64,000 nucleotides of DNA from Ruditapes philippinarum. Taxonomy: Eukaryota. Positions within the stretch are counted from its first letter, which is position 1. Every line of letters begins with the position of its first letter. The position numbers were made by a program, and so were the translations under genes. The DNA lies in contig NW_026864809.1 in NCBI RefSeq assembly GCF_026571515.1, positions 124,001-188,000 of the forward strand. The letters are read 5' to 3'. The notes beneath the pieces were generated by a model. The model saw only the letters and a program-made list of their open reading frames with translations, was not told the DNA's origin and did not search any database. Positions 25,941 to 62,555 of this stretch are shown here, one piece after another.

Positions 25941-25989
25941 GTAATTTCAACTGACGGGGTTGCCTTCCAGAGTTCATGAATTTATTACC

Positions 25990-26680: not shown

Positions 26681-28069
26681 AAACTTTATATTTCTCTTAA
26701 TTATACAAATGGTTCAATTTAATTAGTCATGATGAAAACATGCCAGTTAAATATTCCTCTTAATTCAAATGGAATTCATAAATTTGCAAGCCATACTTTT
26801 TAAAGAATGTATGTTTAGTCATCAGAATATGATTTTTCTAATTGATATTTTTTCATATGATTTAATATTTACTGTGATTTTACTGTTATTGTACGAATAA
26901 TGATTGATAAGAACGCGTTGTTACGCGTGACCTACGTGCATGTGGTAAATCAAATTGAAACTGTAAAAGTGTTACTTATAGAGTAGGTCATTTGAATGGT
27001 AAATAAAAGCTTTATTTGTGTTTACTTTTGTCTTTTTTCAAATTGTGATTTTTGAATCTACAGCCGATTGCCAAAACATTTTTAATTTCTTTTTTATTTC
27101 TTTTAGAACACTCTATTTGACTATTCTTTATAATAGTTGTTGCAGCTGCCTGATCTAGTATAATATCGGATCGCTGCTTACAAAAATATCAATCATAGAA
27201 ATATGTTTATTAACCTCGTGGAAACTGCCTTTTTTTTCTCCCATGCATATTTTATAACTGTTGATGTTTTAGACCCGTTTTGGGCGAGAGAGTTGCTTTA
27301 ACGGTCAGTTCATTCCTTCAGGATTTTTCACAATTTCTTCAATTACGTAATGGATACAGTAAGAGTTTTTCTTCGCAACTGTCTTCTTACAAACGTTAGA
27401 CAGTTTGCTAGGATAAACAACAAATTGTTCGAAGCTAAGTCGTTGATAAATTGTTTCTCTTAGCAAACCGCCTTCTTCATGTCTGTAAAAGACACGTTTG
27501 AAGAAAAGGAACCGACTTAAACGACGACTAAGTGTAAAGAACAGATAAATTAATAAATACATTACCTATATTTTAATCGGACAAAATAGACTTTCAGTCA
27601 TTTACAATGTTAAATGGATGCATTCAAAAGAGAGTCATATTTACTAAAATTCATTATGTCGATCAATATGTATTGCGTCAATCTTATTTTGATAAATGTT
27701 GCGGACCTCTTAGTTGTTAAATTTTCTTATTTACATTCTTAACACAATGGCCGTTGACGTTTTATATCTATTTTTCAGTGGTGGGGTGGGAGGACGACAG
27801 TAAATGTCATATCATTGTTGTTTATCCTGATAGAATAACATACGGTATACAAGTGTCAGCATTATCCAACGAACAATTGTTTCGTCGATAGTCAATAGTA
27901 ACTTTGTTCCATGAAATGGCCATCAATTTTTTTTATTTTATTCTATTTTCGATAAACTAAAACTACTGGATTACGCTATCAAGCTCGCTACAAAGTTCAA
28001 TTTGTTTTATGGTGTCCTCATTGAGGCAGTTATTATATCGCCTGTCAAGTTTTAAGATTGACTTTATCT

Positions 28070-28355
28070 CTTGTAATTGGTCGACCAGAAGACTAGGTAG
28101 CGCTTTTGTACTCACTCAGGCGTAGGTGTAGACGTCACATTTTGGTTTGCGTGCAAGTTGGTATCTCAAAAACTACTAAGAGGAAGGATTGAAACGTATT
28201 TGGAAGCATAATGTGCTATATCCAAGACGCGTTACTCTAATATGGATTTTGAAAGAACTATGGCCCTATTTGACCTTAGAAAATTCCACATTATCCAGAC
28301 ACTTGTTTTCCTATCAAGCACTAAGAATAGTCGAGTGCAATGCCCTTGTTAATAG
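28070..28355 (+). mobile_element. Short HINE-like element
   Basis: gcttttgtactcactcaggcgtaggtgt start; agaactatggccctatttgac and aatagtcgag end motifs. Confidence 0.5.
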
Positions 28356-29007
28356 ATAAGTAGCTATATAATACATTCTCTTTAAAAAAATTATTGTAGT
28401 CAAACAAGAAACATGCGAGAATTAATGTTTATCATCGCGAATGTTTTTACATTTTGACTCTCATAGTTTAGCATGCAACAAATTTAACTTTGAATGGCGC
28501 CAAAACTTTCATTTGATAATGCAAAAATCTCGCTATTTTTAATAAAATACAGAAGGGCGAGACAAGACCTCCAGAGAAAAAAATCTTGCATTTCAATAGA
28601 TGTCATATAACTGGCACGAAACAGGACACCGTATAATGCAGCTGCACTAAATCTACATGGAAGGTAACTGTTATTTACAGACGTTAGAAGAATTTTTGAA
28701 TAGTTCTGCTGAGGGTATAGTCGTATTTTAATCTATAGTTAAACAAAATGTCACCTTGCTGGATGTAGATAAACAATATAAACAATTTTCGTGAAATGTA
28801 CTTTAATTTGAACAAATTCTGAAAATAAAAACAAACATAACAAGTTAAGGAACTAAAGAAGAAATACGGCTTAATGGTATAATCGCTCAACATCTGTCAT
28901 TTATTTCAATGCATGGTGATGAATAAATTAAGATTGTATAATCAAGTGTTAAAATCTATATAAGTACAGGTTACCATGACCAAAATGACCGATCAAAAGT
29001 AAGACAA

Positions 29008-29970
29008 AACTAGAAATGTGTCTATAGGACACAGATGCCCCCATTCATCCAATGCTTCTAGATGCAATTATATGCCTAGACATTACATTTCTCAAGTGCT
29101 GAATTTGTTTCCATGTATCTCTCTTTTATTTTGTTATAAAAATGACAAACCCAATGATAAATGAACACTTCAATAGTTCAGTTGTACAGGCATGAGCTAA
29201 AAGGGAGGATAGAAACAAAATGAACCAATAGAGAAAGGTAAAAGTTAATCAAAGACGCAAGTGTGTAAAAAGGAATTATTAGATAAAATAATGATTTCAG
29301 AAAATATAACTTGTAATAACAGAGTGAAGGTAAAAATAGAAATACAAAATGGTTGATAAAAATCTGATGTATTACCTAGGCGCACATGCTCATCAACATT
29401 CCTGTAAAGTTTTTTGACTAGCTCCAGGGCTTTTTGAGTTAATATAACTTGTAATAACAGAGTGAAGGTAAAAATAGAAATACAGAATGGTTGATAAAAA
29501 ATCTTATGTATAACCAAGGCGCACATGCTCATCAACATTCCTGTAACGTTTTTTTACTAGCTCCAGGGCTTTTTGAGTTACATGCGGCACAATTATAAAA
29601 TTGAAAACATTTGACATAATTCAAGGACCATAACTCTAACAATTTAATATAAATCTACACGTGAAAGCTCAGGTGCTTAGCCTAACATGCTGATCAACAT
29701 ATATGTGAAGTTTTTTACTCTAGCTCCAGCAGTTTTAAAGATAAAGGCGACACAAGTTGAAAATTGCAAATTTTGACTAAGTGAGGGGCCATTACTCTAA
29801 CAATTCCAAATTAATCCACATTTGAAACCCCGGGTGCATCAACATTCCTGTAAAGTTTCTTGACTCTATCTTCAGTACTTCAGATACAGGCGACACAACA
29901 TTTTTGGACGGACGGGTAGACAGCTGGACGAACAAGTGCAAATATAAATGCCCAACTCTGAGAGGCATAA
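29008..29970 (-). mobile_element. HINE-like element with a tandem internal duplication of about 137 bp (29305-29580)
   Basis: aactagaaatgtgtctataggacacagatgccccc hairpin end; (GGAC)n-like tract and atgccc...ggcataa at the other end. Confidence 0.7.
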
Positions 29971-31273
29971 TTATACGATCAACAAGGTATATGTACAATG
30001 TTTGGTTTACATCAACATTAAATAAAATCTTTGAACAAAATTGAAAAACAAAATCATTTATTACAGGGGGGGAGGGGGGAAACAATTGAAAAAAGTTAAA
30101 CACAGCAATGTTATGGTTCTTGGTTACTGCAATTCCTCTGAGTGATCTTTACATCTTTTTTCAGTTAAATTAAATTATTTCCCCTTTGTCTCGGAATATG
30201 AGTGACAGATGAATGGACAAGGTGACCAGTATGTACACTCTATCTCAATAAGGAGTATAATATACATGTCATAATTTTGTAAGTAGTCAATAATTGTTAA
30301 AAGATAAGTATCTTGTACCACAGAATGCACTTTTGTACATGTGTCTATAAAAAAGTTTAATTTCTTTCGTATTAAATCATTCATGTGACATAATTAATAT
30401 AAATCATATTCAAAAGTTCCACTGAAGGTGATTCAATCTCTATCACTCCACTTTCAAATATTTGAAAATGGAGTTTTCTGATGTGAAAATTGATCTAAAC
30501 CTATATTTTATTTTGTTTCATCAGTGAACCAATAATAATTACAATTAATTGCCTTGATAAAAGAAGAGTATAATAATATGCCAAACATGATTTTGGTAAA
30601 AACAAAAGGGCATATAACTAAGAAAATAATAATCTTCTGACGCCAAATTGAATGAAAAGACCAAATAGATTTAAACTTCCTATGAGAGTTATAAAACACA
30701 GTGCATTGTTACATCGCATTGATATTTCAAGTTCATGTTAATTTATCTACCGGTTCCTGAGACGGAATGATATTGGATAGGACATACAATAATAAACTTG
30801 TAGCAAGTCATATCAATTTTTTGAGAAAAAAGATGACTGAACCTGAAAAAAAGTCATTTATGAAGCAGGGTCATTGTAAGTCAACTTGAAAGTATATCCT
30901 CAAAGAATGTTGTGTCCATGTATATAGACAAATTCATTTATAGATAACTTAGCTATAGCCACTTAGGTACATTTTTGGTGATATTTTCTAACCTATAAAA
31001 TTCATATAATTAACTAACTAACTAACTAAAACTGTCAAAGTTATGAAACTTTACACGCATACGCACACACGCATGCACACGCGCACACACACAGATGCAT
31101 TGTAATTTTATATTGAAATGCCATTTTTGTCCAGGTTTTATAATTTCCATATACTAATTGCAAAGTATAATCACAGCAAAAAAGTGAGAATGTCAAGTCA
31201 AAGTTAAGTTTGATCTTCATAAATGTTTTGCCCTAAAAGATGTTGAGTCTAAATATGAAGACAGTCCATTTAT

Positions 31274-31835
31274 AAACTAGAGCTGCCACAGGTGTGACGA
31301 ATACCCCACATAATCTCTTTGATACAGCCTATTTGGTAGTATAATTTATAAATATTTTTAAATGAAAACATTTACTTCAAAGGTGACCTTAATTTTGCAC
31401 AGAAATGGAATGGGTTCTGCACATTACCTTATTAATGCAAACATTAAAATCAAGTTAAAAAATTCTTCAGAATAAAAGTATTTCTACATAAATTGTCTGA
31501 TAATTGAACTTTGCCTTTACATTGAGCCTGCAAGGTCGTGACATAGGTTCTACCCATTGCAATGCATAGGTATGATCCAAATTTTATGGAAACCTATGAA
31601 GGGGTAAAAAACTTTCAGAGCAAACACAAAATCGGATGACATTTGACCTTTGACCTTTAAGGGTGACCTTGACCCAAAGTCAGCACAAAGTGGTATGAGT
31701 TTTATATAACACCTTATCAATTTGTCAAGGTTGAAGAAAATTTTCGAATTGTAAAAGAAGTACTGAAGAGCATTAAACTTGTTTGATCTCAAATTGTTAA
31801 CTTGACTTTGAACCAGCAGAGTGGTGACATGAGTT
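31274..31835 (-). mobile_element. HINE-like fragment
   Basis: aaactagagctgccacaggtgtgacgaataccccc end; tgacctttgacct / tgaccttgaccc motifs. Confidence 0.6.
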
Positions 31836-31849
31836 CTCTCCGCTGCATG

Positions 31850-32490
31850 GCCGTCGACATGTCCTTATCTGAAAAATATTTGTAGTTTGCGTACAGTGAC
31901 ATTTTCAGTTCCTCGATCACTCATTATTGTTGGAACGATCCCGCCTAAGCTGGTTATGGTGTCCAAGTAGCATGCATTTTGCAATAATCTGTGGATCATT
32001 ATTACTGGTTGCAACTTCAAGACACAGAGTTTTACGGCTGTATCTTTCTACGGCCCCATGAATTGCAAACCCAAAAGGTTTTTATCGTATCCATCGATGT
32101 GCCATACGCGGCTTGGACCCGGACACGAATACTTCCTCTGCAGACGTCGCTTACGTTTTCTTCTTTCCATGTCATCTTGATGTGCTATCCGCATGAATCT
32201 TACAACCGTTGAACGATATACATTTACCACTCCCAGATAGTTCTGCAAGAATTGCACGAAAAAATATCTTCATTATTCGATTCTACTGTTCGACTATGAA
32301 ACACTAGTTTCTTTACGATTACTTTTAAGTGACGATAACTAACTTTTATTCCATCAATCAACAGAAGACTAGCTAATATCTCCCACCGAGAAATAATGAA
32401 CTATCAAATTCATCATCGTTTCTTTATTTACAATACGTTCTCCTATTGCCAATGCAGTCAACGCCATAGAAATAACACCAGCATCTGCAA
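31850..32490 (-). pseudogene. Degenerate IS3EU transposase (right arm, inverted)
   Basis: RSTVVRFMRIAHQDDMERRKRKRRLQRKYSCPGPSRVWHIDGYDK; homologous to the left arm, with frameshifts and an internal deletion. Confidence 0.85.
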
Positions 32491-32857
32491 TCAGATAACA
32501 ATACAATTACCTACTATATTATATTTTGTACACGCAAATGCAATTCTGACAAACAGATGCGCAGATTGAACCCTGATGAATATTTTAAAGAGTATCTAAA
32601 AAAACAACATTTGGTTTAGACCCCGGTTTCCAATTCAGAATATAGGCAGATTTATGTGTTCTAGATCCCAAAGTATTTTCATTTTAAACCAACTAATATG
32701 AATAATTTTCCTACTAATACTTTTAACCTATTTATAATGAAAATAATGATATATTTTAAACTTATATAAGTAAAAGATCACTAACCATTTTGTTCACGCA
32801 ACTTCTAAGCTATCCAATATGGCGACAAATGACGTCACGATCACGTGGCATATACCT

Positions 32858-33403
32858 TGAAGTTGAAATCTGGAAGCTGAAATCGTGAATTCGTGAAGTT
32901 GAAATCGTGAATTCATGAAGTTGAAATCGTGAATTCATGAAGTTGAAATCGTGAATTCGTGAAGTTGAAATCGTGAATTCATGAAGTTAAAATCGTGAAT
33001 TCATGAAGTTGAAATCGTGAATTCACGAAGTTGAATTCGTGAAGTTGAAATCGTGAATTCATGAAGTTGAAATCGTGAATTCGTGAAGTTGAAATCGTGA
33101 ATTCATGAAGTTGAAATCGTGAATTCGTGAAGTTGAAATCGTGAATTCATGAAGTTGAAATCGTGAATTCACGAAGTTGAATTCGTGAAGTTGAAATCGT
33201 GAATTCATGAAGTTGAAATCGTGAATTCGTGAAGTTGAAATCGTGAATTCATGAAGTTGAAATCGTGAATTCGTGAAGTTGAAATCGTGAATTCATGAAG
33301 CTGAAATCGTGAATTCATGAATTCCGTATGTTGAAAATGTGAATTCACGAAGTTAAATATGTGTATTCATGAAGATGAAATCGGGAATTCATGAAGTCGA
33401 AAT
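32858..33403 (-). repeat. Same 22-bp tandem repeat, inverted (right arm)
   Basis: (GAAGTTGAAATCGTGAATTCRT)n, more homogeneous than the left array. Confidence 0.95.
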
Positions 33404-33441
33404 GGCCCTACCGGTCTTTCGTAGATTTCTCATGTAACTGT

Positions 33442-33654: not shown

Positions 33655-35459
33655 ATTTGCATTTTACATACTAGTAGTTTGTTTCTTTATAATGCTAAAG
33701 TCAGTTCCTTGCAGTCAAATGAACAACCTCTTTTCACTATTTCTTATTACTTGTATTTAATTTTGTAATATTTTTCCCCGTTTATATTGCAAATAACCTG
33801 TTATATACGGCCATATAACCTGAGAAAAAGTGAGATTTCTTCATTAATTGACAGCAGCCATGTATATAAAACTTTATGAAAGTCATGATATTATACAATG
33901 AAAAACAAAGTTACAATTGTACAGTATTATAATAAGAAAATAATTTACGGAGCGGCGTATGAACAAACATAGCTGTTAAAGACGTTTAATATTCTTATTA
34001 GCGTCCAACTACTTTATTCGTTGACCTAATTTTCAGGTCATGTTTACGACATTTTAGTAAATGAAATAAATTGATATATTGCGAACAATATATGCAAAAT
34101 AGACTGACAAAATATCCAAATTTAGACATTCTTATTGGATTAAAGAGTAAGGCAAAGACTTACTGAGGTCGGTATTCATCTGATTTACCTGGAATTTAAT
34201 TATTCAGTTCCTTAGATTATTATTTCTACTTATAAGTTCGTCTTATGTTGTAGAACATTAACTGCAACATTTGTCTTATCGAACAAGTGTTTTATTAAGG
34301 AAACAGCTGATTCAAAAGAGAGAAAATACACGTACCAATACAGTTAGACAAAAAATGTGATAATTTATTCATTTTCAATTGTGTAATTGTTATATCAATG
34401 TAACTTGGGTTCAAATGATGATAACATATAAAACAAATATATTTGTCGTTACTTTTAATTAGACAATAGTTACTGTTATATTTCTTGAATACAAGATTGC
34501 AACAAATTTATGAACTTTTAATAAATTGATTCCAATTAAGCATAATTATATTATAACATTTAGTGTTTAAAGGCTCTTAAATCAGTTTTGGAATATTTCA
34601 CCCGTCTTAATGCATGTTTTCTTTTTATGTAATAACGTAAAGGTGTAAATAAAAAAGCAAACAACAATTATATGTAGAAAGGGTGATGAATAAGTTAAGT
34701 TTTAGGAAACTGTACTTAAACTCTTGCAATATCATGTGTTTTATTCCTAAAATCAATGGAACATACGACGGACATTATCCAATTTAATGAATTATTTACG
34801 AACACTGAAAAGGTCTTCCCTGCAATGATACGATACTATATACATTTACAATATATCTATCTTATATATATGCAAGCGAATTCGCAACATAAGTATATCT
34901 TTGACACCATTTTTAAACAACATTCACATGATTTCCCTTCTGGGAATATTGTTGTTTTTGAATTGATATAAGATTTTCATCGATCTTCCGTTGAGTGTTA
35001 CGCAACATGAAGTCATATTATTTTGTTCACAAGCGTCAATTAAGTTTATTAAACCGGAAATAATTGTGATTTAGACCGAAAAGACTCAGTGTCTAAAACA
35101 ATTAAAATTGTAAAAATGACTCTTTTTTGGGGGGGGGAGGTGCTCGTATTTATAATAAAATAAACTTGTCCGCAATTAGTTATCACCATAGGCGTTTTGT
35201 GGTGATTTGTTGTATATAGTGTTTTGATAACCTGGTAAACAAGAACGTTTAATAGTTACGGAATATAATGCATCATGGTATATGTTTTGACACAATAAAA
35301 CCAATCTGAATGTATGAAAACGAAATCAATAAACTTTCTGGCACCTTTGAAGAAATTGCACTTTATTATTCAGTACAAACAATATACGAGTACAAGTAAT
35401 GGTATACATAGGGTTTCAATATATTGTAAAATCATCAAGACAATTAATTAGACTCTTAA

Positions 35460-36060
35460 CCCATTACGCGATATACACGCCTTTTAACGCCTTATTTCAC
35501 CCCCCCCCCACCCTTTTAGTGTCTCTAATGGTGAAAAAATGCCTTATTTAGGCCCCCAATCCTTGTTTTTGTTTGAGAAATGTTGTTTCGGCGCGGTCCC
35601 CCAACCAAAAGATACATCAGGGGTTGCTAGGGGATGTGCCCCCTTCTGTTTGGTGGGTTTGAAGGGGGCGGAGTCCCCCTCATCGCCATGAAAATTTTGG
35701 ACTTGTGAGAGGCTATAAACGACCCCAGATTGGTCATAAGGTAACGTGTAACCAACGCTGAAAAGCATTTAACTCTATCCCAATCCATTGAGAAGTTGTA
35801 GCACTTTGAAATCAATTTTGATGGAAAAAATCAACGCAAAATAATGATTTTTGGCAATTTTAAGATGTCCCCTCGTTCCCATGGTAACAGAAAATTTAAG
35901 CCTGAACATGTTGTTTCAAGGGCAATGGTCCAGTCAACATTTGTGCCAAGTTTGATTAGTGTTGAAGCAGTTTTTATAGTATTATAGCATTTTGAACTTG
36001 TAACGGGAGACTTTTCAATGAAAACATCCATTTTTCACAAAATGCTCATGAAGTAATGGG
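35460..36060 (-). mobile_element. piggyBac-type non-autonomous element
   Basis: TTAA|CCCATTAC...GTAATGGG|TTAA; homologous in opposite orientation to 60741-61362. Confidence 0.85.
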
Positions 36061-37139
36061 TTAATGAATATTGACACAGTAACGTTACATACGTTGTCTG
36101 TTCTACGCGTGTGAACATCAAATAGTTTTGTATTATGCATCATCATGACATTGTAACGAACAAGAATAATTCAAACTTGAGAAATGCATATTTATAAGTC
36201 TGGTAAATGTATACCTGAAGCGTGCTCGCATCTATCTATCTTAACTCTGTTTTAAACTAACTAACATAAAACAGACTTACTTCGCTATGTTCTGAAAATG
36301 TTGTAATTATCCTTCATTTTTGTATCATATTAAAAAAATAATGATAGTTTACGGTTGCGTCATACAAACGTTAAATGCATTACATTTGTGAAAGTGTCAA
36401 AAGAATAATAATCAACTTTAAATAATATGAATCATAATATCGGTTAGGATTTTGATCAGTTTTGTTACCTGCGAAAATTATCAAATATTTAGAAAAAGTA
36501 CTTTATATCACATTTACATTCGATAAACGTAATATCTAAGTAATGCATAACAAAATATCAAATTTTTAACAATTCAGTGTTAAACTATATTGATTTCTTT
36601 GTAAGTTGTATAAGATAAGTATTAAATAACCTTGAAACTACCGAATGTGTAATAAAACACTTAGATAGGCGACTTACAACATATTTTTAGATGAAATTGG
36701 CATTTGACGGAGCCGCAACAGATACGATCCGAGAAGTGTTTAATAAAATACGTGTAAACATTGTTAAGGATATATCAAATGGTTGTTATTCTCTTTGATG
36801 AAAGCAATATACCCATCTTAATTCATACCAGGGAGTGCCGACACTAGCTTCATTATAGAAAAGCGCTATTCATAACTTCTTCTTGAGTATTAAAATTAAT
36901 AATGATATGTGTTGAAACTGGGATATGATAATTTATTGCATATTTAACGTTTATTTTGGTATTTCCTTTTCATTTTTATACTTTGATATCCAAGTAACTA
37001 CTATTGCTCTCTTCAAAGACGAAAAGATGTTAACATTATCTGTATTCATATATTTAAAAATGCATTACACTTGGCATCATTTGAATGATACACCCTGAAG
37101 AAAATATAACAATTTCATATCATAATAGCGTTCACCTAC

Positions 37140-50799: not shown

Positions 50800-51885
50800 A
50801 AAAATCCAAATGAATAAAGATCTGTTTAACATGGCTACCTCAATGTATTCCATGGTATTGAGAAATTACCTGATGCTTGCACGATCAAAATATATCACAA
50901 CTATTCCCCTCTAGATCAACCTCCCCGACATTGTGCCAGTCTCCCTTCGAAGGAACTTAATGCTATGAAAAAAGCTGGCATTATAGAAAAGGTCACCACA
51001 CCAACATATTGGGTGAATATTATGGTCGTAGTCAATAAGTCACATTCAGATAAGGTTCGAATTGTAATTGACCCCAAAACCATATCCAAAGGTCACACTA
51101 TCCCTTAAAAGCTGTAGATGATAATTTCCGCAGTTGAATTCTGCATTTTTTTCACAAAACTTGACTGCACATCAGGTTAATTACTGGTCAGTTGTTTTAG
51201 ATGTCAAATCATCACATCTTACCACCTTCAAGACACCCTCAATGACGTTATATGCATTTAAGATGTCCCATGTGATTAAAATAATAAAATGCAGTCAAGC
51301 TATCTTTAAACAAAAGATGCATGATTGTTTAGAAGGCTTATTTGGTTGTTGTGGTATACGACACTCTAGTTTATGGCTCATCTCAAGAATATCGTGACAT
51401 AAATCTAAGAAACTTACTTGATAGATGTTCGCGAAAAGCTCATAAGGTTAATGGCAGGGATTTTTTTCCAGGATTTTGGGAACATGACCCATACCCATGG
51501 AATTGGAAATTTCAGCGGTGTTGTTTGTTTTTTTTTTAATTGGGAAAAAATGCATGACTGAAATTTTACATTGATAAAATCGATGCAAAGAAAAACTGTC
51601 TAGGATGGCATCTTCAAACATTTAAGCAATATTACAGTGAAGAAGCCCTTGTTTTCAAAGATTTTAGAATTTTTATTCAATATTTTTATTTTGTAACTTT
51701 CAAATGGGATTTTTTTCCTGTGATTTGGAAAATAATATACTATTTTCAATTGGGAAAATGACTCAATAACGGCAATAGAATAAGCCAAAAAATCCCTGAA
51801 TGGGGACAAACTTGTTGATGGTGTCTCAGAAGAAAAGTATTTCGGTCACATCCTTTCAGCAGATGGATTGAAATCAGACCCAGAC
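50800..51885 (+). mobile_element. Degenerate Ty3/Gypsy reverse-transcriptase fragment
   Basis: KELNAMKKAGIIEKVTTPTYWVNIMVVVNK...KVRIVIDPK, YWSVVLDVKSSHLTTFKTP, DTLVYG, KYFGHILSADGLKSDP; several frameshifts. Confidence 0.9.
51455..51798. mobile_element. Small TIR element inserted in the Gypsy RT relic
   Basis: CAGGGATTTTTT...AAAAAATCCCTG with 5-bp duplication AATGG; removing it restores the RT frame KVNGDKL. Confidence 0.85.
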
Positions 51886-51935
51886 CACTTTTAGAAATAC
51901 GCGCTATCCTACTTCTGACACCATGCTACATGTAT

Positions 51936-52148
51936 ATATGAGCCGCATCACGACAAAACCAACATAATGGGTTTGCGACCAGCATGGATCCAGACTAGCC
52001 TGTGCATGCGCGCAGTCTTATCAGGATCCATGATGTTCTACTTGTAATAGAGTTGGTAAGCGAACAGCATGGATCCTGATCAGACTGCGCGGATGCGCAT
52101 GCTGGTCGTAAACGCACTATGTTGGTTTTGTCGTGACGCGGCTCATAT
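51936..52148. mobile_element. Palindromic MITE
   Basis: ATATGAGCCGC.TCACGACAAAACCAACATA...TATGTTGGTTTTGTCGTGACGCGGCTCATAT; almost wholly self-complementary. Confidence 0.85.
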
Positions 52149-53127
52149 TATATTACATGTTGTAAGATGAAAACAAGATAATTGCGCTAAATAAATATTA
52201 TATTTTTCTATTATTTGTAAAAACAGCTATTGTTAAGATCAGAGATGATATATACTATATACTAGTAGCTAGGGGCCTACTATAGCAGTTTATAACACAA
52301 TTTAACTAGTTAGAAATGTTACCAAATAAGTTATATTTCTTGATACAATATCCTGACAAGATTACATCTCAGATAATGTACATTGATGAATTAGCCTAAA
52401 AATAATCTCAATTTTCTCCGTCGTTCAAGACCATGAAGACATGAATCAGGGAATAGCAGAATCAAACAACTTGAATCAAACAACGTAACTGCTCATCAAT
52501 TTGATCAAATTTATATGTTTTGACAAAAGCGTTTTTGTCAAATCAGAGATAAACTAGATCTATTAATATAATGGTATAGAAGTTCAGATCTACGCCAATT
52601 TAAGGGCAACTTACAAGATTGCCACGACACTACTGTACGAGTATGACACTATGGAGGGCGTTTGTTGCCAAAATTCCATACATGTAAAGTGTTCGGTACA
52701 TGTCTATGGAAGGCGTTTGTTGCCAAAATTCCAGACATGTAAAGTATTCCTTTTGAAAACTACTTTTGAAAATGCAAACGTGCATGTCTAGTTTTTTTTT
52801 ATTGTATTCGTGCACAGCAAATAATATGCCTCTTAATCCAATCTTTTAATTGAAGGCACCTGCTTTAAATAACAAGTTTACATGTAGATCTTAACAACTG
52901 ACTTAACAATAAATTTACAAGTTCGTATCTTCCATTGCATATAATACATAAGCATGTTTGCACGCTTATCATGCTTATATATATATCTAACCGTATCTAA
53001 GACATATATAAATGAAATGTAAAACTCGAATACAGAAAATAGAGTTTAAGAAAACGTGTTTCCAGTTGTAGAACTGCAACAGTACGTTTACACTGTAACA
53101 TGTTTAAAATAACAAAATTAGATTTAC

Positions 53128-54260
53128 AAGTAGAGTTTTTGATGCTAAAGCATCAAGTCGCCGGATAGAAATATGATTGTATTATCGAAAATAAAAGAAA
53201 ATATCAGTTTAATGGAAAAGAGGAACAATATTATAAGTTGAGTAATGTTTATTCATAAACATGTTTTCATGTACTTGTCACAATTATATATTTCTTGCTA
53301 TAAAATTTGTAAAAGAGTTTTATGCAATAAATTTATGTTATGTTCTAACAAAACATCATATTTGAAGCAAACATGCTTAGCAATTTTGTCAAAAAAACTG
53401 TTATCATTGTTAAATGAGCAAGTATTGTTTGGCAATATTTACACGAGACTAATTAATTTTCGGGTGGTGTTTCGTTAGCTTTCATAACTTATTATGATAA
53501 ATATTATGGTAAGTATAATTACATGAATATAACAATTAATTGAGTGACGAAGTTGTAACCTAGTAGGCGCAAATTCGAATCTTGGACAAATCCTGTTTGT
53601 AGTTTTCATAAATTGATTTTATTATATCTTTCAACTATATGAAACATAAGTTGATAAATCGTGTGTTTCATTTCTATAGCACTTTTTTATTTCATAATTT
53701 TGATAAATGGTCAAATTTTGAAAAAAAAAACAATATCATAAAAGAAAACATAAAAATCACTTATCGAACCTACAGTCTTCAATTTGAAACTAACAATAAA
53801 ACTAACACCTTGTCATCGAGGCTTGTAAAGCAAGTGATATGCTTGTAATTCTACTTGTAATTAGATACTTTATACATATACCGTTGTACTTCAGAATCCG
53901 ATAATTACCGATCATCGAATATTTGGAAAGTGACTATGAAAATATATATGCTTAATTATTGCATGAAACAATGCAATTCTACTGTAAAAGTGGTGTGTGC
54001 ATAAAAAAATGTTCTTATGCGCTATCGAATAAATATATAATTTAGTTGAAATCAATATTCCCGTCGTTGCATACGATATAGTTAACGTTTAATTGTCTTT
54101 CAGTGCGATAAACTATCAACACAAAGATAATTTATTAGTTTTCTCTGTGTATCCAATACGATTCCGGCCCCCTACCGTCATACCGAGATTTTGCAATTAT
54201 TCATATCAAATTACTTTGATTTGCACTTTATTTGTCGCCGGTAGAAACCGGCGACTATAT
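53128..54260. mobile_element. Helentron-type non-autonomous element (HINE-like) nested in the 52.6-57.6 kb element
   Basis: Terminal hairpin TTGATGCTAAAGCATCAA plus GTCGCCGG at one end; GTCGCCGG-tagaaa-CCGGCGAC at the other. Confidence 0.6.
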
Positions 54261-55549
54261 TTGTAACAGTTTAATATAATATCTATTTGTAGGAGAAGGC
54301 CTTAAAATCTGAATATAAAAGCAAATCAATTACTAAACAATTAAGGACCACAATTATTTTTCATAATCTTAAAAATTCAAATACAAAGTAACGTTGCTAA
54401 ATGAAATGAAATATACAAATATTGACATCTTAAAAAGCAACATTACAATTTTCATAAAATGAATTAATAACGTATCCCTATGGACCAGTCATTGAATTTA
54501 TGGATACTTTTACTTTTTTTCTAAGTGTCATTCGTTGCTATTTTATGATTGATAAATCATGAATGATATTTGAAATGACACATTTAAATTATTTGGTTGT
54601 TTATATCTTATGAGACCTATTATATTTCATTATTTTATCTAATTATAAACAGATTCTCCCTGAATCACGTGACTACACGTTGTGTGTTATCGTTATAAAA
54701 TCTATTAATAGTAACAGATTGCTGATAAGACATACAGGTAACTTGTGAATAGTTGAAAAGGTATGGCGGCTGATTAGATGCAAATGTATAAATAATTACA
54801 AAGTTATCTTTCATTAATCAGTTTCATATTTTATATCCTTAGAAAGGTCTGTATACTCATACTCATAATTTACACATTCAAGAATAAGTTTTCAAAACCG
54901 TTTCGTTTTTTCTTGGTAGAGGGTTAAACTTGGCCCTTTCTGTCAACGTGCAATACTTTAGTTTAGGTTGAACATCACAAAATAGATTTATGCTAAAGAG
55001 GCACATTAGTGGTAATCGTCGTCTTCGTTATATTCCGTCGATTTCCGTCGCGCTGGTTCCCAAAAGGTGTCGGCCTGGTGATTTTTCGTATTCTTGATTC
55101 TATAGTAAATCAGTCACATTTGAGGCTTAATTCTGGATTCCACTGTTCTTGATGAATTATATACTGTCTTCAACTTTAAACATCAACACTATCTGAGTCA
55201 AATGAGGCCCAAAATATAATAGGTTAGCCATCTCCTTTTTTCAGAAATCTTCATTCTGTTGTAACACAGTTTAAATTCACCACTTTAAAAACTCCTGACT
55301 GCTGGTGGGTGGTACATCTTTAATCCTTCCGCCAACAAATGAGTTCCTGGAGAATACACAAAAAAACTACTTTTAAACTCATCATATAACACACAAAAAC
55401 TACACACATGCAATAAATACACTTAAATTATGACCAATAGAGATGACTTAAATTGGGCCACTTCAAAATTTTAAAGAACTACTTTCTAGACTACAATGAG
55501 CTGGGTCTAATTCCGTACCGGGTTGAGACCAAAACGGTATGACGGTAGG

Positions 55550-56446
55550 GATCCGGAATCGTATTAGATACATAATAAAGAAAACTAATAAAATATCTTT
55601 TTGTTAATATTTTATCGAACTGAAAGGCAATTAAACGTTAACTACATCGTATGTAACGACAGGAATATTGATTTCAACTAAATAATTTATTTTTTCGATA
55701 GCGCATAAAAATATTTTTTATGCAGATACAACTTTTACGGTGGAATTGCATTGTTTCATGCAATAATTAAAACATATATATTTTCAAATATTCGATGACC
55801 GTTAATTATTTGGCGGTAATTATCAGATTCTGAAGTATACAATACGGATTTCGATGTCTGGTATAACGTAGAATTACAAGTAGAATTACAAGAATATCAC
55901 TCGCCTTACAAAATTAATTAAAATTATCAAATAAAAAAAATGCTAGAAATGAAACACGATTTATCAACTTATGTTTCATATAGTTAAAAGAAATAATAAA
56001 AAAATAGTTTTATGAAAACTGCAACAGGGATTTTCAAAGATTCAAACTTGGCCTACTAGGTCACAACTTCGTCATACTTACCACCACTAGGCCATCAAGC
56101 AATATTAATTGATTTAATATCTTTACTATCAATAAAATCTTTAGCATTAATCATAATAAGTTACGTACTAAACTAACGAAACACCTCCCGAAAATTAATG
56201 AGTCTCAGCAGGTCAATATTGCCAGACAATACTTGCTTATTTAATAATCATAGCAGTTCCTTGACAATATTGCTAAGCAAGTTTGCTTCATATAATTATG
56301 ATGTTTTATTGTGAATGAATAGTTACTCAACATATTGTTCCTCTTTTCTTTATACTTGAACCATTAATTAAACTGATATGTTCTTATATTAATGATAATA
56401 CAATCATTTTCTATCCGGCGACTTGATGCTTTAGCATCAAAATCTC
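55550..56446. mobile_element. Second, inverted and truncated copy of the 53128-54260 element
   Basis: Reverse-complement similarity along its length, e.g. tctatccggcgacttgatgctttagcatcaaa; tRNA-like A/B-box remnant at about 56030-56100. Confidence 0.7.
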
Positions 56447-56920
56447 AGAATACAAGTTACCTGTATGTCTGTCTCAACAGCCATTTGTTACTAATAATAG
56501 ATTTTATAACAATAACATACAACGTGTAGTCACGTGATTCTTACAAAATAAACAGGGAGAAATAGTTTATAACTAAATAAAATAAAAAATAGAATAGGTC
56601 TCATAAGATAAAAACAACCAGATAATTTAAAGTGTCATTTCAAATATCATGCATAATTTATTTATCATAAAATAGCAAGGCTTGACACTTTGAAATAAGT
56701 AAAAGTATCCCTAAATTCAATGACTTATCCATAGGGATACATCATTAATTCATTTTATAAAAATTGTATTGTTGCTTTTTAAGATGTCAATATTTGAATA
56801 TTTCATTTCATTGAGCAACTTTGTATGTTTGAATTTTTGAGATTACTGAAAACAATTGTAGTCATTAATTGTTCAGTAATTGATATGCTTTTATTTACAG
56901 ATTTTAAGGCCTTCTCCTAC

Positions 56921-57025
56921 GCAACGGGATAGCGGGGGCGTTATTGTGTATTTCAAAGAAATTTACCGTAACGCCGTCGAGTTAGTGTCATTAAATGTAA
57001 ACGGTATTCTTTGTATTAAAAAAAT
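56921..57025 (+). mobile_element. Short LINE apurinic-endonuclease fragment
   Basis: QRDSGGVIVYFKE...VELVSLNVNGILCIK resembles the GGV-x-x-Y motif region of non-LTR retrotransposon endonucleases; absent from the opposite arm. Confidence 0.55.
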
Positions 57026-57954
57026 AGATAGATATTCTTTATTTCCTCCATTTAGAAGAGCATATTGATCATATGTACAAATATAATATAATCGTGACAT
57101 ATTTACAAATATTACAGTTACATATATAACAGTTTTATATGATATTAACATTGTTTCAAACATATTCATACATCCTGTAATCGTATATGGTTTTAGAAGC
57201 GGATATTTACAACCATTACAAACAAATTTGAACAATTTTCAAGTGATGTAGCTAGAGATAAAACTTTTGTAACAAATGCGAAGAATGCGGCGTGTTTCCT
57301 TCAGTTTTATTTAGAAATATGGGAGAGACGCCTGTCCGCAAAAGTTCGTAAGTACTAAAGAGGGGCGGGGCGTCATGCATGATGTCTGGAATTTTGGCAA
57401 CGAACGCCCTCCATACATGTCTAGCATTTTTGATTGTACATACAAACTTGTAAATTTTTTGTTGTATTCCATGTTAAGTAAACGATCTATATGTAAACTT
57501 TGTTATATAAAGACGGGAACCCTCAATTACAGGCATATTATGTGCTATGCACGGGTACAATAAAAAATGGTAGGCATACAAGTTGGAATACTTTACATGT
57601 CTGGAATTTTGACAACAAACGCCCTCCATATGACACCATGGGTCAATTTTAAACGGGGTCAAAATTTTATATTCCGGCCCTGCCCATGTGTTAGTGCATT
57701 CTCAAAGAAAGCTATACCATTAGATGCGGAATTAATTTTGGAAAAAAAAACATAAAGCTCAACAACCGTGCGATTATTACGCGACACCAGTCAATGAACT
57801 AATAAATGACTAATGTATGCTGACGACACATTGCATTGTGGGTAATTCACTGTTCAGAACGAGGTAAAGTAGGGCAGTGTGTATTGGAAGAGGAAATTGA
57901 CAACGTCACATTTCTAAATTATTTTGCATCTCATGTGTTTACATGTACAAAACA

Positions 57955-57973
57955 ATGGATGACAATGCCATGG
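57955..57973 (+). CDS. RXR: RXR coding exon 1 (MDDNAM + first base of E)
   Basis: aaaacaATGGATGACAATGCCATGG|gtatgt: A-rich start context and canonical donor. The phase-1 join to the 61554 acceptor gives [22 protein letters not shown], resembling molluscan RXR N-termini. Confidence 0.8.
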
Positions 57974-58253
57974 GTATGTACATCTTAAATAATTATATTA
58001 TAATTTAGTCTTTGATTAGATGTTCATTGTCGTTTAGAGAAGCAAACTTAGATTTTACTCAAAATTCCCCGATGTTTGTGGTCGCCATTTTGGATCGGAT
58101 TGAAACGAAATTTTCTATCGGCAGACTCTTGCTTACACATATAATATGGCTAGGTAGAATGTTACGATCATCATATTATTGTATTTGTAACATGTGCAGT
58201 TTGTGCTAATTGGATTATTTATGCATGCTTGCGGTCAAGACAAAAAACTTCGT

Positions 58254-58317
58254 GGGTCAACAGAGGTCATGTTTTGGTTCGAGTTGCCCTCGGTATGAAC
58301 CGTTGAACTTATGAACT
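58254..58317. promoter_or_regulatory. Cluster of nuclear-receptor response elements in RXR intron 1 (DR4 on +; DR2-DR2-DR5 on -)
   Basis: GGGTCA-acag-AGGTCA at 58254-58269 and TGCCCT-cggta-TGAACC-gt-TGAACT-ta-TGAACT at 58285-58317. Confidence 0.6.
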
Positions 58318-58786
58318 CTAAATTGTTGTGATTCGATTACGCAATATATATCGCCACAATGCAAATTTTATATGTGTACTGAGGTAAAAAGGAATTTCAA
58401 CTTTTTTGCAATGAGTTTTATTTCAAAATAGATACATCTTTTTAATTCTTAATATATAGATCTAGATACATCAAGAACAAATAATATGGTGCTAAATTAT
58501 AGTATAGTATACAAGCATTAGTTAGTATCTTGGTGCAACCATACCTTCCATTCAACTTGACTTTAATGGGGTTACTCGACAATATCCACCAGGTAGACAT
58601 CCACGTCGAGTAGGTGAGGACTGTACATCGGTGTAGAGTGGTGTGTTCCGACATAAATTTTAAAACTATATTACACAATTCTATCTGGAGTTAGTGTACC
58701 AGGTTTTGTAAAATAAGAAAATCATTTCACTCATCTTAATTGATATTCAATCCATCTTCCATTGAGTCAAAACACTGCTGGAGACC

Positions 58787-60273
58787 GGTAAAGAATCAAC
58801 TCGGCCCTATAGGCTATACCAAAATGGCTAAGGTTAACTCGGCCCACTTAAGAAAAAAACATATTTAATGTGTTAACTCTTTCTAATGTCTTGGATGGTT
58901 TCAAGGCAAACTGATTTTAATGAAAAATAAGAGATATCTGGTATATCATTATATAATTGTACATTGTACTTCTGCAGAATTTTAGTATATTAAGAAGAAA
59001 TTTGTTACGTTTATTCTTGCAGATTCGTTAAAAATAACTATAATACAAATGTGTTCCCTTTGATGCTTTTTTGTTTGTAAAGTTATCTACATTAAAATAT
59101 GAAATAAAAACGTGTTTACTTATTATCATAAGCTTCTTATTAGGCCATAGAAAATTAATCTTTAGACTCTCATCCAGGTTCAAGAAATAATTGGGGCGGG
59201 TGGGCGGAATTTATAATTTATAATTTATTTTATCCATCACTTTTAAGACCTGAAAAAAAAACAGAAATGTATGAATATATTGATGAATGTCGCATCATTT
59301 CCACCCAGATTTTGATCAAAACTAAACCCAAACCAATCACAAACAGTTTTCTTGTTTTACTGAATCATATATTTCACATATGACGAACATTTTGACAATT
59401 TTACTGATCGAAAACGAACGTATTTAAAATCTTGATCACTAGACGCTGTAAACCTCAGTCTGAGTTTTATGTGTTCGTCCCGCGAATATTCAACCACGAT
59501 TTTCGGACGAATTTTCGTCCACAGACGTCTGCAAAATCATGCAGGGTTCCCGCTGTCGATCGCCAATGGCTTCAAATGCGACAAAATATTAATTCTGGCG
59601 CATAAAATCTTTAAATTTGCGAATTTAACTGGCGCCAACGTAAGATAAAAGCATCCGACAACTAGTACACTTAAATGTCATAAGCGGCCGCGTCAATTAC
59701 ATAAGCAGCCCAAATGTGAAAGGTCACGCACTATTAGTTTGTTTATCAAACTGTATAATCGGGTACCGTATTCAATTGTGTGACACTTCGGGAACATGTG
59801 AAGATGAAACTAATTTTGACCCAGAGGGAACCCTGGAAATGAACAATTTTTTTTTATGAAAATAAATTATTTTGGGGCGGAAAGATTTTGATACGGGCGG
59901 GCGGGGATGAGAGTCTAAAGATTAATTTTCTGTGGCCTTAGTTGCAGGTGGTCATTAATCAAATTTGAATAATAACAATTAACATGCAACTTATTTTGCA
60001 ATGCCACAAGGATGGCTTGTAATAAGGTTTTATTACCCAAATCATTGAAAACTCTTTCATTACCAAAAATGTTATCATAATTTAAGAAAACATCTTTCCA
60101 CGTCTAAAAAGTCTATATATAAATCATATAGTTCCAACAATAAGGAGTGTATAAAACAAACCAATAAATTAATAAATTAAAAAAGTGGACCGAGTTGACC
60201 CGTACCGAGTTGGAATAGGACCGAGCTGACACTGGCGCCGAGTATTTTTTAAGGCCGAGCTGACCCTTATTCC
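58787..60273. mobile_element. Old TIR element with subterminal ACTCGGYC repeats (superfamily unassigned)
   Basis: aactcggccc motifs at the left and multiple ccgagttg/ccgagctg motifs at the right; imperfect GG..CC ends. Confidence 0.6.
59143..59937. mobile_element. GGCC-ended TIR element with TTA duplication (Zator- or Harbinger-like), nested in the previous element
   Basis: TTA|GGCCATAGAAAATTAATCTTTAGACTCTCATCC...GGATGAGAGTCTAAAGATTAATTTTCTGTGGCC|TTA. Confidence 0.85.
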
Positions 60274-60439: not shown

Positions 60440-61500
60440 CTTTTTGTGTTGCCTTTACAAAGTAGTGGTGACATAAAGGAATCACTTCTCCATCGTCTGA
60501 CCGTCACAAAACTGGTCAGGACTACTCCTCAAAAACTTATTGTGCAATTTCATCCAAACTTTACAGGACTGATCAGTACCAAGTCTAGTTGTGCATATCA
60601 TTGACATTTTCCGGTTCAATGATTTTGCCAGAGTTATAGATTTTTATTGTCCAGATTAAGTTTGTACTTTTATTCCACTAGCGCAATTTCAATGAAACTT
60701 TGCAGAATTGATTGGTAGCTCAAGTACTTGTGCATATTAACCCTTTCCCCCATGAGCATATTGTGAAAAATGGCCGTTTTCACTGAAAAGCCTCCTGTTA
60801 CAAGTTCAAACTGCTATGAAACTATGAAAAATGCTTCAATACTAATCAAACTTGGCACAAATGTTGACTGGACCATTGCCTTTGTAACGACATGCTCAGT
60901 CTTAAATTTCCTGTTACCATGGCAACGAGGGGTCATCTCAAAATTGCCAAAAATCACTATTTTGCCTCGATTTTTTCCATCAAAATTTATTTCAAAGTGC
61001 TGCAACTTCTCAAGGGATTGAGATAGAGTCAAAGGCTTTTCAGCGTTTGTTACACGTTACATTATGATCAACCTGGGGTCATTTTTAGCCTCTCACAAGT
61101 CCAAAATTTTCTTGGTGATGAGGGGGACTCCGCCCCCCTTCAAACCCCCCTAACAGAAGGGGGCACATCCCCCTTCTGGCAACCCCCTGATGTATCTTTT
61201 GGATGGGGGGCGGCGCCGAAAATGTGCTCATTTTTTTAAGCAACATTTCTCAAACGAAAACTTGTGTTTGGGGCCCAAATAGGACATTTTTTCACTATTT
61301 GAGGCCTAAAAAAAGGGGGGGGGTCGAAAGTGCGTTGTTTCGCGTATATATGAGGTAAAGGGTTAAACAGAATTTCCGGTTGAATGAGGAGTTATGGTCC
61401 TCAAATAAATAATGTGTTTGACCTGTAAATATTTTTTGTGTCTCCTGCTACACAATAGCTGCAACATGCAATTGGCTAATATCAGGTGACAGGTGATCAT
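60440..61500 (+). mobile_element. HINE-like element interrupted by the piggyBac-type insertion
   Basis: Typical motifs (caatttcatccaaactttacag, ttcaatgaaactttgcag, gagttatgg) continue on both sides of the TTAA insertion. Confidence 0.55.
60741..61362 (+). mobile_element. piggyBac-type non-autonomous element of the same family, nested in a HINE in RXR intron 1
   Basis: TTAA|CCCTTT...AAAGGG|TTAA. Confidence 0.85.
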
Positions 61501-61553
61501 TAATATCGCTTTTGTCATTGCTCATTAAAGAATTGTTGTTTTTTTTCTTTCAG

Positions 61554-61959
61554 AGTCTTTAGAAAGTAGTGTTAGCAGTGGTCCCGGGATGTCAATGGGA
61601 ATGGACATGGGTGGTATGGGGATGACAAGTCCCATTTCTTCTGTCGGTTCAATGTCACCCGGAATGTCTTCACCTGATATAAAACCCGATATTACGTCAT
61701 TGTCTGTAACATCGCCTCCCGGATCCTACTTCAGTTACGGAATGCATCAAGGCATGAATTCACAATCTGGTTCAATACATTCTCCACCATTACACTCGCC
61801 ATCATCGTCAGTACAGTCTCCTACAATGATGTCCATTGGGTCGCCTGGCTCTGTTGGTTCACCACCAAATCCTCACATGCCTCATACAACCCTGAGTAAC
61901 AAACACATATGTGCGATATGTGGGGACAGAGCTTCTGGAAAACATTACGGTGTTTATAG
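61554..61959 (+). CDS. RXR: RXR coding exon 2: Ser/Pro/Met-rich A/B domain (PDIKPD motif) and start of zinc finger 1
   Basis: Acceptor ttttctttcag|AG; translation ends [20 protein letters not shown]; donor AG|gtaaga. Confidence 0.97.
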
Positions 61960-62397
61960 GTAAGATCATTCAGTTCACTGAATTTCAGTTTTTTAAAGCC
62001 TGTTTTTAGAAAAGATTATGATCTATAGGCAATGTTAAGAGCCTCAAAGGTAAAACAGAGCATTGTTAGTGATTTATTGATTTCACTTATATAACAGAGA
62101 CCTATATAAGGCCTCTCTGTAATGGAAATTTTCTTTATTATCATGCAGTTTTACCAAAAATCTTAACCAGGTTTTTTAATTCCCAAATTAGCAATTTTAG
62201 TGATAACTTTTCCTAAAATCATGAGGGTAAGGCCTGTTCCCATTTAAAAGAGAAAAACAGCTGACTATTAATTTACACACTAAAATGACATTGTGCACTT
62301 AACTTCACAGAAAATGCATAATAATTGTTTCCAGTACATGAGGATGGAAAATAAGTCTCAAGTTTTATCAATAAATTATTCTTTTCTTTTGTCACAG

Positions 62398-62555
62398 TTG
62401 TGAAGGATGTAAAGGATTCTTTAAGCGCACAGTAAGGAAGGACCTGACCTATGCTTGCAGGGATGACAGAAATTGCATGATTGACAAACGACAAAGAAAT
62501 CGTTGCCAGTACTGTAGATATATGAAATGTCTTTCAATGGGCATGAAACGTGAAG
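62398..62555 (+). CDS. RXR: RXR coding exon 3: remainder of the DNA-binding domain; gene continues beyond the window
   Basis: Acceptor gtcacag|T; translates [52 protein letters not shown] (RXR P-box CEGCKG); donor G|gtatgt. Confidence 0.98.

What the first reader, a model, noticed from the sequence alone, without database searches (positions are those of the whole stretch)
52644..57636. Second IS3EU-type foldback element abutting the RXR promoter
Seen: TATGG...CCATA ends, a perfect TGACAC duplication, the terminal motif repeated internally (52706 and about 57385-57415), and hundreds of bp of inverted homology between the arms. Its right end is 324 bp before the RXR ATG, and it contains a GC box (GGGGCGGGGC, about 57362). 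Its end sequence differs from that of the 24-33 kb element but follows the same TAY..RTA plus 6-bp rule. Inference: long inverted arms may be a recurrent product of IS3EU elements in this genome, and this copy may have displaced or supplied RXR upstream regulatory sequence.
Basis: partly seen in the sequence, partly recalled or inferred. Interest (0 to 1): 0.7.

Follow-up and report, generated by a model that had tools for sequence, protein, structure and literature searches.

The report
Nested transposon pile-up before RXR gene
The 5-kb stretch just upstream of this mollusc's RXR hormone-receptor gene is not one fold-back element but pieces of seven jumping-DNA insertions from five common families, most sitting one inside another; it ends about 240 bases before the likely start of the gene's RNA, and any effect on the gene is untested.

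Summary
The listed motifs are real, but the reading is not. 52650-57630 is a nest. (1) A 264-bp deleted copy of a TATGG..CCATA family ('X', TSD TGACAC). (2) Inside it, a second X copy, 52705-57415, with its own 6-bp TSD, CATGTC; these are the 'internal terminal motifs'. (3, 4) Two Helentron-type (HINE-like) copies from two subfamilies, one inserted the other way round into the other; these are the 'inverted arms'. Each is closer to dispersed copies (93%, 95%) than to the other (88.5%), and the blocks share no symmetry axis. (5) A KolobokP-type solo LTDR. (6, 7) Two LINE scraps at a deletion scar. X is a real non-coding family: 502 exact end matches in the genome, exact 6-bp TSD in 24 of 34 paired copies, ~550-bp imperfect TIRs. 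It is IS3EU-like by its ends only; I found no partner transposase. The GC box is standard X sequence. RXR exon 1 (ATG 57955) is spliced in RNA contigs that reach back only to 57869-57891, outside the nest. DNA contigs of three other samples match the right junction; no empty allele was seen. The scan earlier noted HINE-in-HINE nesting on other DNA of this genome. Ordinary.

The parts
52644..52649 (.). Left target-site duplication of the outer element (TGACAC)
   Evidence: Identical to 57631-57636
52650..52704 (+). Outer element, left piece: X left end with a ~30-bp deletion; its last 6 bp (CATGTC, 52699-52704) are the TSD of the inner X copy
   Evidence: 93% to 52704-52749; junction motif found once in the genome at up to 1 mismatch
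52705..53125 (+). Inner X copy, left arm (first ~421 bp of the family's ~550-bp TIR)
   Evidence: Most genome hits begin at 52705; median 90%, best 96% to 34 full copies
53126..54229 (-). Y1: 3' part of a HINE-like non-autonomous Helentron, subfamily 1; 3' subTIR, hairpin and end at 53126-53175
   Evidence: 92.3-93.6% to 9 subfamily-1 loci
54230..55065 (+). Y2: 5' part of a second HINE-like copy, subfamily 2, inserted in opposite orientation into Y1; TT, 5' subTIR and inverted repeat at 54230-54255
   Evidence: 94.2-96.0% to 10 subfamily-2 loci, 88.5% to Y1
55066..55530 (+). Z: solo long terminal direct repeat of a KolobokP-type DNA transposon, GG..CC ends, 4-bp TSD AAAA
   Evidence: 97-98% to 14 loci; 3.0-kb LTDR-INT-LTDR copies with 4-bp TSDs; first 14 bases shared with KolobokP-5_GarTel LTDR
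55531..56447 (+). Y2: 3' part, ending in 3' subTIR and hairpin; the last ~7 bp of the family end are missing
   Evidence: Continuous with 54230-55065 in subfamily-2 loci
56452..56920 (-). Y1: 5' part, lacking the first ~57 bp of the element; 16-17 bp of Y1 are lost at the Y2 insertion point
   Evidence: Continuous with 53126-54232 in subfamily-1 loci
56923..57020 (+). V: 98-bp internal scrap of a young LINE family (inside its endonuclease frame)
   Evidence: 96-97% to the four best copies; those loci carry ORF1- and endonuclease/reverse-transcriptase-like frames (domain names from my reading of the translations, not scanned)
57024..57227 (-). W: 204-bp 3' end of another LINE-like family with a (CTAT)n tail
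   Evidence: 95-99% to 9 loci; tail and variable 5' truncation; a 186-aa frame upstream in L141 (not scanned)
57233..57415 (+). Inner X copy, right arm: family positions about -590 to -410 joined to the last 34 bp; holds the GC box (57362-57371)
   Evidence: exact GC box in 29 of 34 family copies
57416..57630 (+). TSD CATGTC (57416-57421), then the rest of the outer element: X left-arm positions ~85-101 joined to a shortened X right end
   Evidence: 57416-57438 is 23 of 23 identical to positions 79-101 of copy L081, which shows the empty site; right end 83% to L081
57631..57636 (.). Right target-site duplication of the outer element (TGACAC)
57869..57973 (+). RXR exon 1 as far as RNA contigs show it; ATG at 57955, donor after 57973, spliced to exon 2 at 61556
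   Evidence: Contigs from 57869 (X19) and 57884 (X17) continue into exon-2 sequence; a contig from 57891 (X15) stops at the donor; RXR identity

Best explanation
The stretch is a nest of non-coding transposon copies, likely built up by successive insertions into one spot and likely neutral for RXR, not a single foldback element. Order of events (the nesting is shown by TSDs and uninterrupted copies elsewhere; the chemistry is inferred from the named families). First, a copy of family X inserted at TGACAC and was reduced to 264 bp. A second X copy then inserted into it at CATGTC. Both were likely moved by cut-and-paste, in trans, by an IS3EU/GingerRoot-type DDE transposase that leaves 6-bp duplications. 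HINE-like copy Y1 then landed in the inner X, and Y2 landed in Y1 in the opposite direction, likely by rolling-circle transposition without TSD; this pair is the inverted homology. A KolobokP-type LTDR landed in Y2 with a 4-bp TSD. Last, a deletion removed Y1's 5' end and X's interior and left two LINE scraps at the scar. The pile-up likely reflects that insertions into existing transposon DNA are tolerated next to an essential gene, while RXR keeps its start site in the single-copy DNA downstream.
For: Second perfect TSD CATGTC, with the same hexamer present once at that position in intact X copies. X: 253+249 exact 25-mer ends, reversed control 0; exact 6-bp TSD in 24 of 34 paired copies and 1 mismatch in 4 more, from 40 loci. 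Y1 and Y2 each map end to end onto dispersed copies of their own subfamily at 92-94% and 94-96%, against 88.5% to each other. No common axis. Y ends match the HINE pattern; 239+209 exact 5' ends, control 0. Z: 4 of 4 LTDR-INT-LTDR copies have exact 4-bp TSDs; end shared with published KolobokP LTDRs. Identity to dispersed copies rises inward: X about 90% (median), Y1 93%, Y2 95%, Z 97-98%. RNA contigs of three studies start at 57869-57891, and none of the three runs covers 57757-57850, where DNA run X9 goes on.
Against: No transposase with X's TIR was found in 40 of 151 integrase-core (PF24764) loci, each read 5 kb to either side. No X copy carries transposase remains (0 tblastn hits with 35 proteins on 34 full copies, 24 longer loci and the nest). 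So the IS3EU assignment rests on ends and TSD alone. The outer 264-bp piece is a single case, so its history is read from one sequence. The order of V, W and the deletion is not resolved. Neutrality is assumed, not shown: the nest lies within 240 bp of the apparent start, and contigs cannot fix a start site. The HINE partner and a 5' microsatellite were not shown.
Confidence: 0.88

Rival explanations
1. A single IS3EU-type foldback element whose long inverted arms arose by duplication of one arm.
For: Outer ends and TSD are real; about 1,350 columns of inverted homology lie inside. True foldback forms exist in this genome: the 24-33 kb element (1.5-kb arms) and X copy L086 (1.85-kb internal palindrome at 96%).
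Against: The arms start about 480 bp and end about 700 bp inside the termini, have two different axes, and are each closer to dispersed copies than to one another. None of 34 full X copies matches 53131-57224.
Confidence: 0.02
2. The nest is as described but has been co-opted: it is fixed in the species, moved older upstream DNA 5 kb away, and its X-derived GC box, brought nearer to the gene by a ~375-bp deletion, now acts on RXR transcription.
For: The nest ends 238 bp before the 5'-most RNA base seen. The right junction is present in contigs of three other samples from three studies: 55 bases into the nest in X9, 30 bases in X4 and X7 (one short of the tool's 31-base rule). The upstream flank is single-copy.
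Against: The GC box is standard family sequence (exact in 29 of 34 copies) and lies about 500 bp from the apparent start. RNA contigs do not reach the nest at this locus. Several parts are young (97-99% to other copies), which fits continued tolerance of damage rather than constraint.
Confidence: 0.1
3. Family X is moved by a hAT6-type transposase (6-bp TSD), not by an IS3EU one.
For: hAT families with 6-bp TSDs exist in animals (PMC12730594, passage); no IS3EU partner with X's TIR was found.
Against: X's ends match TAYGG..CCRTA, given for fungal IS3EU families. Elements in this genome with IS3EU-type transposase frames have TA..TA ends and 6-bp TSDs, two of them starting TATGGA (L208, L227). 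hAT transposases were not searched for.
Confidence: 0.12
4. The inner CATGTC duplication is not a TSD but the trace of a local rearrangement of one X copy, or an assembly error.
For: CATGT occurs several times in X's termini; the outer piece is unique.
Against: The pieces outside the two CATGTC copies continue X's left arm across exactly that hexamer. A chance 6-bp match has odds of about 1 in 4,000. X-in-X nesting also occurs at C699, although no exact TSD pair was recovered there. Contigs of other samples reproduce 57576-57630 and 52650-52677.
Confidence: 0.05

Closest known systems
IS3EU/GingerRoot DNA transposons (PMC10045372, PMC12730594, PMC6839031; passages read, plus supplement passages of the first)
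   Same: Family X has TA..TA (TATGG..CCATA) ends and 6-bp TSDs. Most Repbase IS3EU families are non-autonomous (17 of 45 autonomous).
   Different: X encodes nothing and no partner was found. Its TIRs are about 550 bp at 80% identity, against 100-150 bp in clubmoss GingerRoot and 64-98 bp in four transposase-bearing elements of this genome.
HINE / DINE-1 non-autonomous Helentrons; oyster Cg_HINE (PMC4067079, PMC7492417; passages read)
   Same: Family Y has a 5' subTIR with an adjacent inverted repeat, a 3' subTIR followed by a hairpin, TT at the 5' junction in 13 of 14 copies, no duplication in the printed flanks, and no long frame.
   Different: No clear 5' microsatellite or central tandem array in 3 copies scanned; partner not sought.
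KolobokP solo LTDRs (PMC9587614; passages and supplement passages read)
   Same: Z is 465-471 bp, has RR..YY ends and a 4-bp TSD, occurs as solo, tandem and LTDR-INT-LTDR forms, and shares its first 14 bases with KolobokP-5_GarTel and its first 10 with KolobokP-3_MeMe.
   Different: The four internal regions examined have no frame of 90 aa or more, so this is a non-autonomous family; not the same family as those published.
Foldback (FB-like) elements (definition recalled, no paper read)
   Same: Long inverted homology inside one TSD-flanked stretch.
   Different: The arms are not terminal, not symmetric about one axis and not derived from each other.

Membership tests
IS3EU/GingerRoot (family X) | TA..TA termini (TAYGG..CCRTA in fungal families) | tested here: met
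   definition
IS3EU/GingerRoot (family X) | 6-bp TSD | tested here: met
   Exact in 24 of 34 paired copies; two in the window
IS3EU/GingerRoot (family X) | TIR longer than 30 bp | tested here: met
   248-593 bp, median 544, in 34 of 34 copies
IS3EU/GingerRoot (family X) | IS3EU-type DDD/E transposase in the element or in a partner with the same TIR | tested here: inconclusive
   None in X copies; none with X's TIR in 40 of 151 PF24764 loci; 111 loci not examined. Filed as IS3EU-like, membership not shown.
Foldback element (whole 52650-57630) | Arms symmetric about one axis and running to the termini (recalled definition) | tested here: not met
   Axes at 54,790-54,867 and about 55,600; arms lie at 53133-56920
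Foldback element (whole 52650-57630) | Arms closer to each other than to dispersed repeats | tested here: not met
   88.5% to each other; 92-94% and 94-96% to their own subfamilies
HINE / non-autonomous Helentron (family Y) | 5' subTIR with adjacent inverted repeat | tested here: met
   14 of 19 loci show it; in the rest the 5' end was missing or an end motif was not found in the locus
HINE / non-autonomous Helentron (family Y) | 3' subTIR followed by a hairpin near the end | tested here: met
   15 of 19 loci and both window copies
HINE / non-autonomous Helentron (family Y) | Insertion at TT without TSD | tested here: met
   TT before the 5' end in 13 of 14; T after the 3' end in 10 of 14; flanks read by eye, no duplication seen
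HINE / non-autonomous Helentron (family Y) | 5' microsatellite (DINE-1, Cg_HINE; only some mite HINE copies) | tested here: inconclusive
   Only 2-3-unit repeats in 3 copies
HINE / non-autonomous Helentron (family Y) | Autonomous Helentron with the same subTIR | not tested
   No search made
KolobokP (part Z) | LTDR of about 450 or 660 bp with RR..YY ends, 3-5-bp TSD, LTDR-INT-LTDR and solo forms | tested here: met
   (the two length classes are recalled from the abstract; published LTDRs of 467 and 470 bp seen)
KolobokP (part Z) | DDD/E transposase and His-Me nuclease in the internal region or a partner | tested here: inconclusive
   No frame of 90 aa or more in 4 of 4 internal regions; partner not sought

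The most novel reading that the evidence does not exclude
A species-wide, still-growing nest of transposons has cut the RXR gene off from its older upstream DNA, leaving about 240 bp of native promoter, and the GC box of the IS3EU-like arm now serves as an upstream activating site; RXR expression in this mollusc would then depend on a transposon end.
Probability: 0.1. Interest if true: 0.55.

Novelty: new member of a known kind. Interest (0 to 1): 0.17.

Why it matters
As it stands it is a clean, datable example of nested insertion, and a caution: a repeat inserted head-to-head into a relative mimics a foldback element, and a self-nested TIR element mimics internal repeats of the terminal motif. 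It also defines a non-coding IS3EU-like family of at least about 250 copies with unusually long (~550 bp) TIRs. It would matter more if the nest changed expression of RXR, the receptor linked to organotin toxicity in molluscs (recalled), but nothing here shows that.

Tried and rejected
Foldback reading: rejected. Outer 264-bp piece as its own MITE family: its junction motif occurs once in the genome. Partner transposase for X: none in 40 of 151 PF24764 loci or in X copies up to 8 kb; L217, L219 and L229 have X-like ends near, but not around, a transposase. A 283-bp module inside X seemed enriched beside transposases, but gave 14 hits in 395 kb against 7 in 255 kb of control loci, so it is just another repeat. 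Z as solo LTR or Penelope repeat: dropped, since its ends are GG..CC, the interior has no long frame and the KolobokP match is direct. V and W as two ends of one LINE: no tblastx match. Rfam scan of 52000-58600: 2 matches, both far below the gathering score. Runs X23 and X24, on record as RNA, showed GATC-starting loose ends, no strand bias and no exon enrichment; they look like proximity-ligation DNA libraries and were not used. Empty allele: none seen in X4, X7 or X9, but the joint and loose-end tables were cut (1,379 and 83 rows not shown) and contigs cannot show absence. Paralogous empty site for TGACAC: the left flank is single-copy, and the right flank has only a 41-58-bp repeat scrap. 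Literature: one search for RXR + Mytilus + promoter + transposable element gave 0 papers; the genus word was a guess, so this says little. No search could check Repbase for families X, Y or Z.
Full report
Observation. A self-comparison of the window gives four inverted blocks: 53133-53213/56367-56446 (91%), 53347-53708/55913-56310 (75%), 53823-54185/55535-55911 (82%) and 54289-54746/56452-56920 (85%). Their order is not that of a hairpin. Three blocks fold about 54,790-54,867 and the fourth about 55,600.

The gene. The frame at 61529-61963 ends in the start of a C4 zinc finger, and the next exon, 62399-62554, hits RXR-alpha and USP best among solved structures (E 1.8e-28). Contigs of run X19 (on record as RNA) and X17 (RNA by guess) cover 57869-57973 and 57884-57973 and continue with the first bases of the exon at 61556. 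A contig of X15 covers 57891-57973 and stops at the donor. So the ATG exon is real. None of the three runs, from three studies, covers 57757-57850, where DNA run X9 goes on.

Family X. A search of the genome with 52620-52900 gave hits that mostly begin at 52705, not 52650. An exact 25-mer of the end occurs 253 times forward and 249 times reverse, with 0 for the reversed control. Of 40 loci fetched, 34 had both ends; 24 of these had an exact 6-bp TSD, 4 had one mismatch and 6 had none. Copies are 1.8-5.4 kb (median 3.0 kb), with TIRs of median 544 bp at 80% identity. The window matches them only at 52705-53129, 57233-57415 and 57440-57630. The inner pair of terminal motifs, 52705 and 57415, is flanked by CATGTC on both sides, and the sequence after the right CATGTC is identical over 23 bases to positions 79-101 of intact copy L081, where the hexamer occurs once at that position. 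The plain reading is an X copy inserted into an older X copy that had shrunk to 264 bp; the junction motif of that small copy occurs once in the genome. The GC box is part of both arms of X (exact in 29 of 34 copies).

Is X an IS3EU? Complete IS3EU families have TA..TA ends and usually 6-bp TSDs (PMC10045372, passages), and fungal ones end TAYGG..CCRTA (PMC12730594, passages). X fits. The genome has 151 scored PF24764 matches. In 40 of them, read 5 kb to each side, four elements had TA..TA TIRs with 6-bp TSDs (L208, L225, L227, L228). The L227 frame and the frame in the 24-33 kb element carry the WH[I/L]DGYDKxKP motif seen in published IS3EU transposases. None had X's TIR around the transposase, and no X copy held transposase remains. 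hAT families with 6-bp TSDs exist and were not searched for. X is therefore IS3EU-like; membership is not shown.

The 'arms' are family Y. A search with 53130-54760 split it into two modules at about 54230. Nine loci carry 53126-54232 and 56452-56920 as one continuous element; ten others carry 54228-55065, and nine of these also 55528-56446 in whole or in part, as one continuous element in the opposite direction. The outer copy, Y1, is 92.3-93.6% identical to the first group; the inner copy, Y2, is 94.2-96.0% identical to the second; the two are 88.5% identical to each other. Arms made by duplication would be closer to each other than to dispersed copies, so this settles the point. Y has a 5' subTIR with an adjacent inverted repeat, a 3' subTIR followed by a hairpin, TT at the 5' junction in 13 of 14 copies and no visible TSD. 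This is the HINE/DINE-1 pattern (PMC4067079 and PMC7492417, passages). Its exact 5' 24-mer occurs 239+209 times. An earlier, unreviewed note of this scan (e1-9530797) describes another HINE-in-HINE nest in this genome; I saw it after reaching this reading and did not test it.

Further layers. 55066-55530 is a 465-bp unit with GG..CC ends and TSD AAAA, 97-98% identical to 14 loci. Elsewhere it occurs solo, in tandem, and as the two direct repeats of a 3.0-kb element with exact 4-bp TSDs in 4 of 4 cases and no frame of 90 aa or more. This is the KolobokP LTDR layout (PMC9587614, passages), and its first 14 bases match the published KolobokP-5_GarTel LTDR (supplement passages). Between the truncated Y1 and X's right arm lie 98 bp from inside a young LINE and 204 bp from the 3' end of another LINE-like family. 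About 2 kb of X's interior and Y1's first ~57 bp are missing here, so this is a deletion scar; the order of events at the scar is not resolved. Identity to dispersed copies rises from outside in (X about 90%, Y1 93%, Y2 95%, Z 97-98%), as nesting predicts.

Other individuals. A contig of X9 runs from 57576 to 58153, 55 bases into the nest. Contigs of X4 and X7 run from 57601 to 58594, 30 bases in, and one of X4 crosses the left junction by 28 bases; these fall short of the tool's 31-base rule. All three are from samples and studies other than the possible source. No empty allele was seen, but tables were cut and contigs cannot show absence. The outer insertion is likely common or fixed; the inner layers were not genotyped.

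Mechanism and verdict. Shown: the nesting, two 6-bp TSDs and one 4-bp TSD, family membership of each piece within this genome, and the spliced RXR exon 1 outside the nest. Inferred: cut-and-paste by an IS3EU-type transposase in trans, rolling-circle insertion of Y, and tolerance of insertions inside existing transposon DNA next to a constrained promoter. Untested: any effect on RXR. All parts belong to known kinds; the finding is ordinary. Repbase could not be consulted, so the families may already have names.

Noticed in passing
window 24243-33423: The other element has TAC..GTA ends with TSD GATTTC, ~1.5-kb inverted arms at 78% that each hold an IS3EU-type transposase fragment (PF24764 hit at 25246-25737), and tandem repeats at both ends; 67-74% related to L225/L228. 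This one does look like a foldback derivative.
   Followed up: partly
L086 (G000:C8518:35582-40382): An X copy with 248-bp identical ends and a 1.85-kb internal palindrome at 96%, without a matching TSD: a true foldback rearrangement of X, or an assembly artefact.
   Followed up: no
L248 (G000:C699:218600-226000): Five X ends within 7 kb, a second case of X nested in or beside X; no exact TSD pair recovered.
   Followed up: partly
L219 (pos. 6987) and L229 (pos. 6844): Ends of a sister family whose TIR shares the first 8 bases (7 of 8 in L229) and a further ~11-base core with X.
   Followed up: no
L122-L135: Nine of 14 top copies of Z share the same flanks on both sides, so Z has been amplified as a passenger inside a larger repeat.
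   Followed up: no
L156-L162: A young LINE family (copies 97-99% identical over more than 4 kb, one at 86%) with long ORF1- and ORF2-like frames; possibly recently active.
   Followed up: no
window 58780-60230 and 59142-59938: RXR intron 1 holds what looks like another nest: outer inverted motifs near 58800 and 60200 (seen by eye) around a 34-bp inverted pair at 59142/59938.
   Followed up: no
window 35456-36065 and 60736-61366: Two copies of a very high-copy repeat, 83% identical, in opposite orientation.
   Followed up: no
window 51914-52167: A ~250-bp palindromic MITE-like repeat with the highest read depth in the region laid.
   Followed up: no
window 50830-51540: Broken frames that look like the reverse transcriptase of an LTR retrotransposon (motifs recalled, not scanned).
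   Followed up: no
runs X23, X24: On record as RNA-seq but behave like proximity-ligation DNA libraries (GATC junctions, no strand bias, no exon enrichment).
   Followed up: partly
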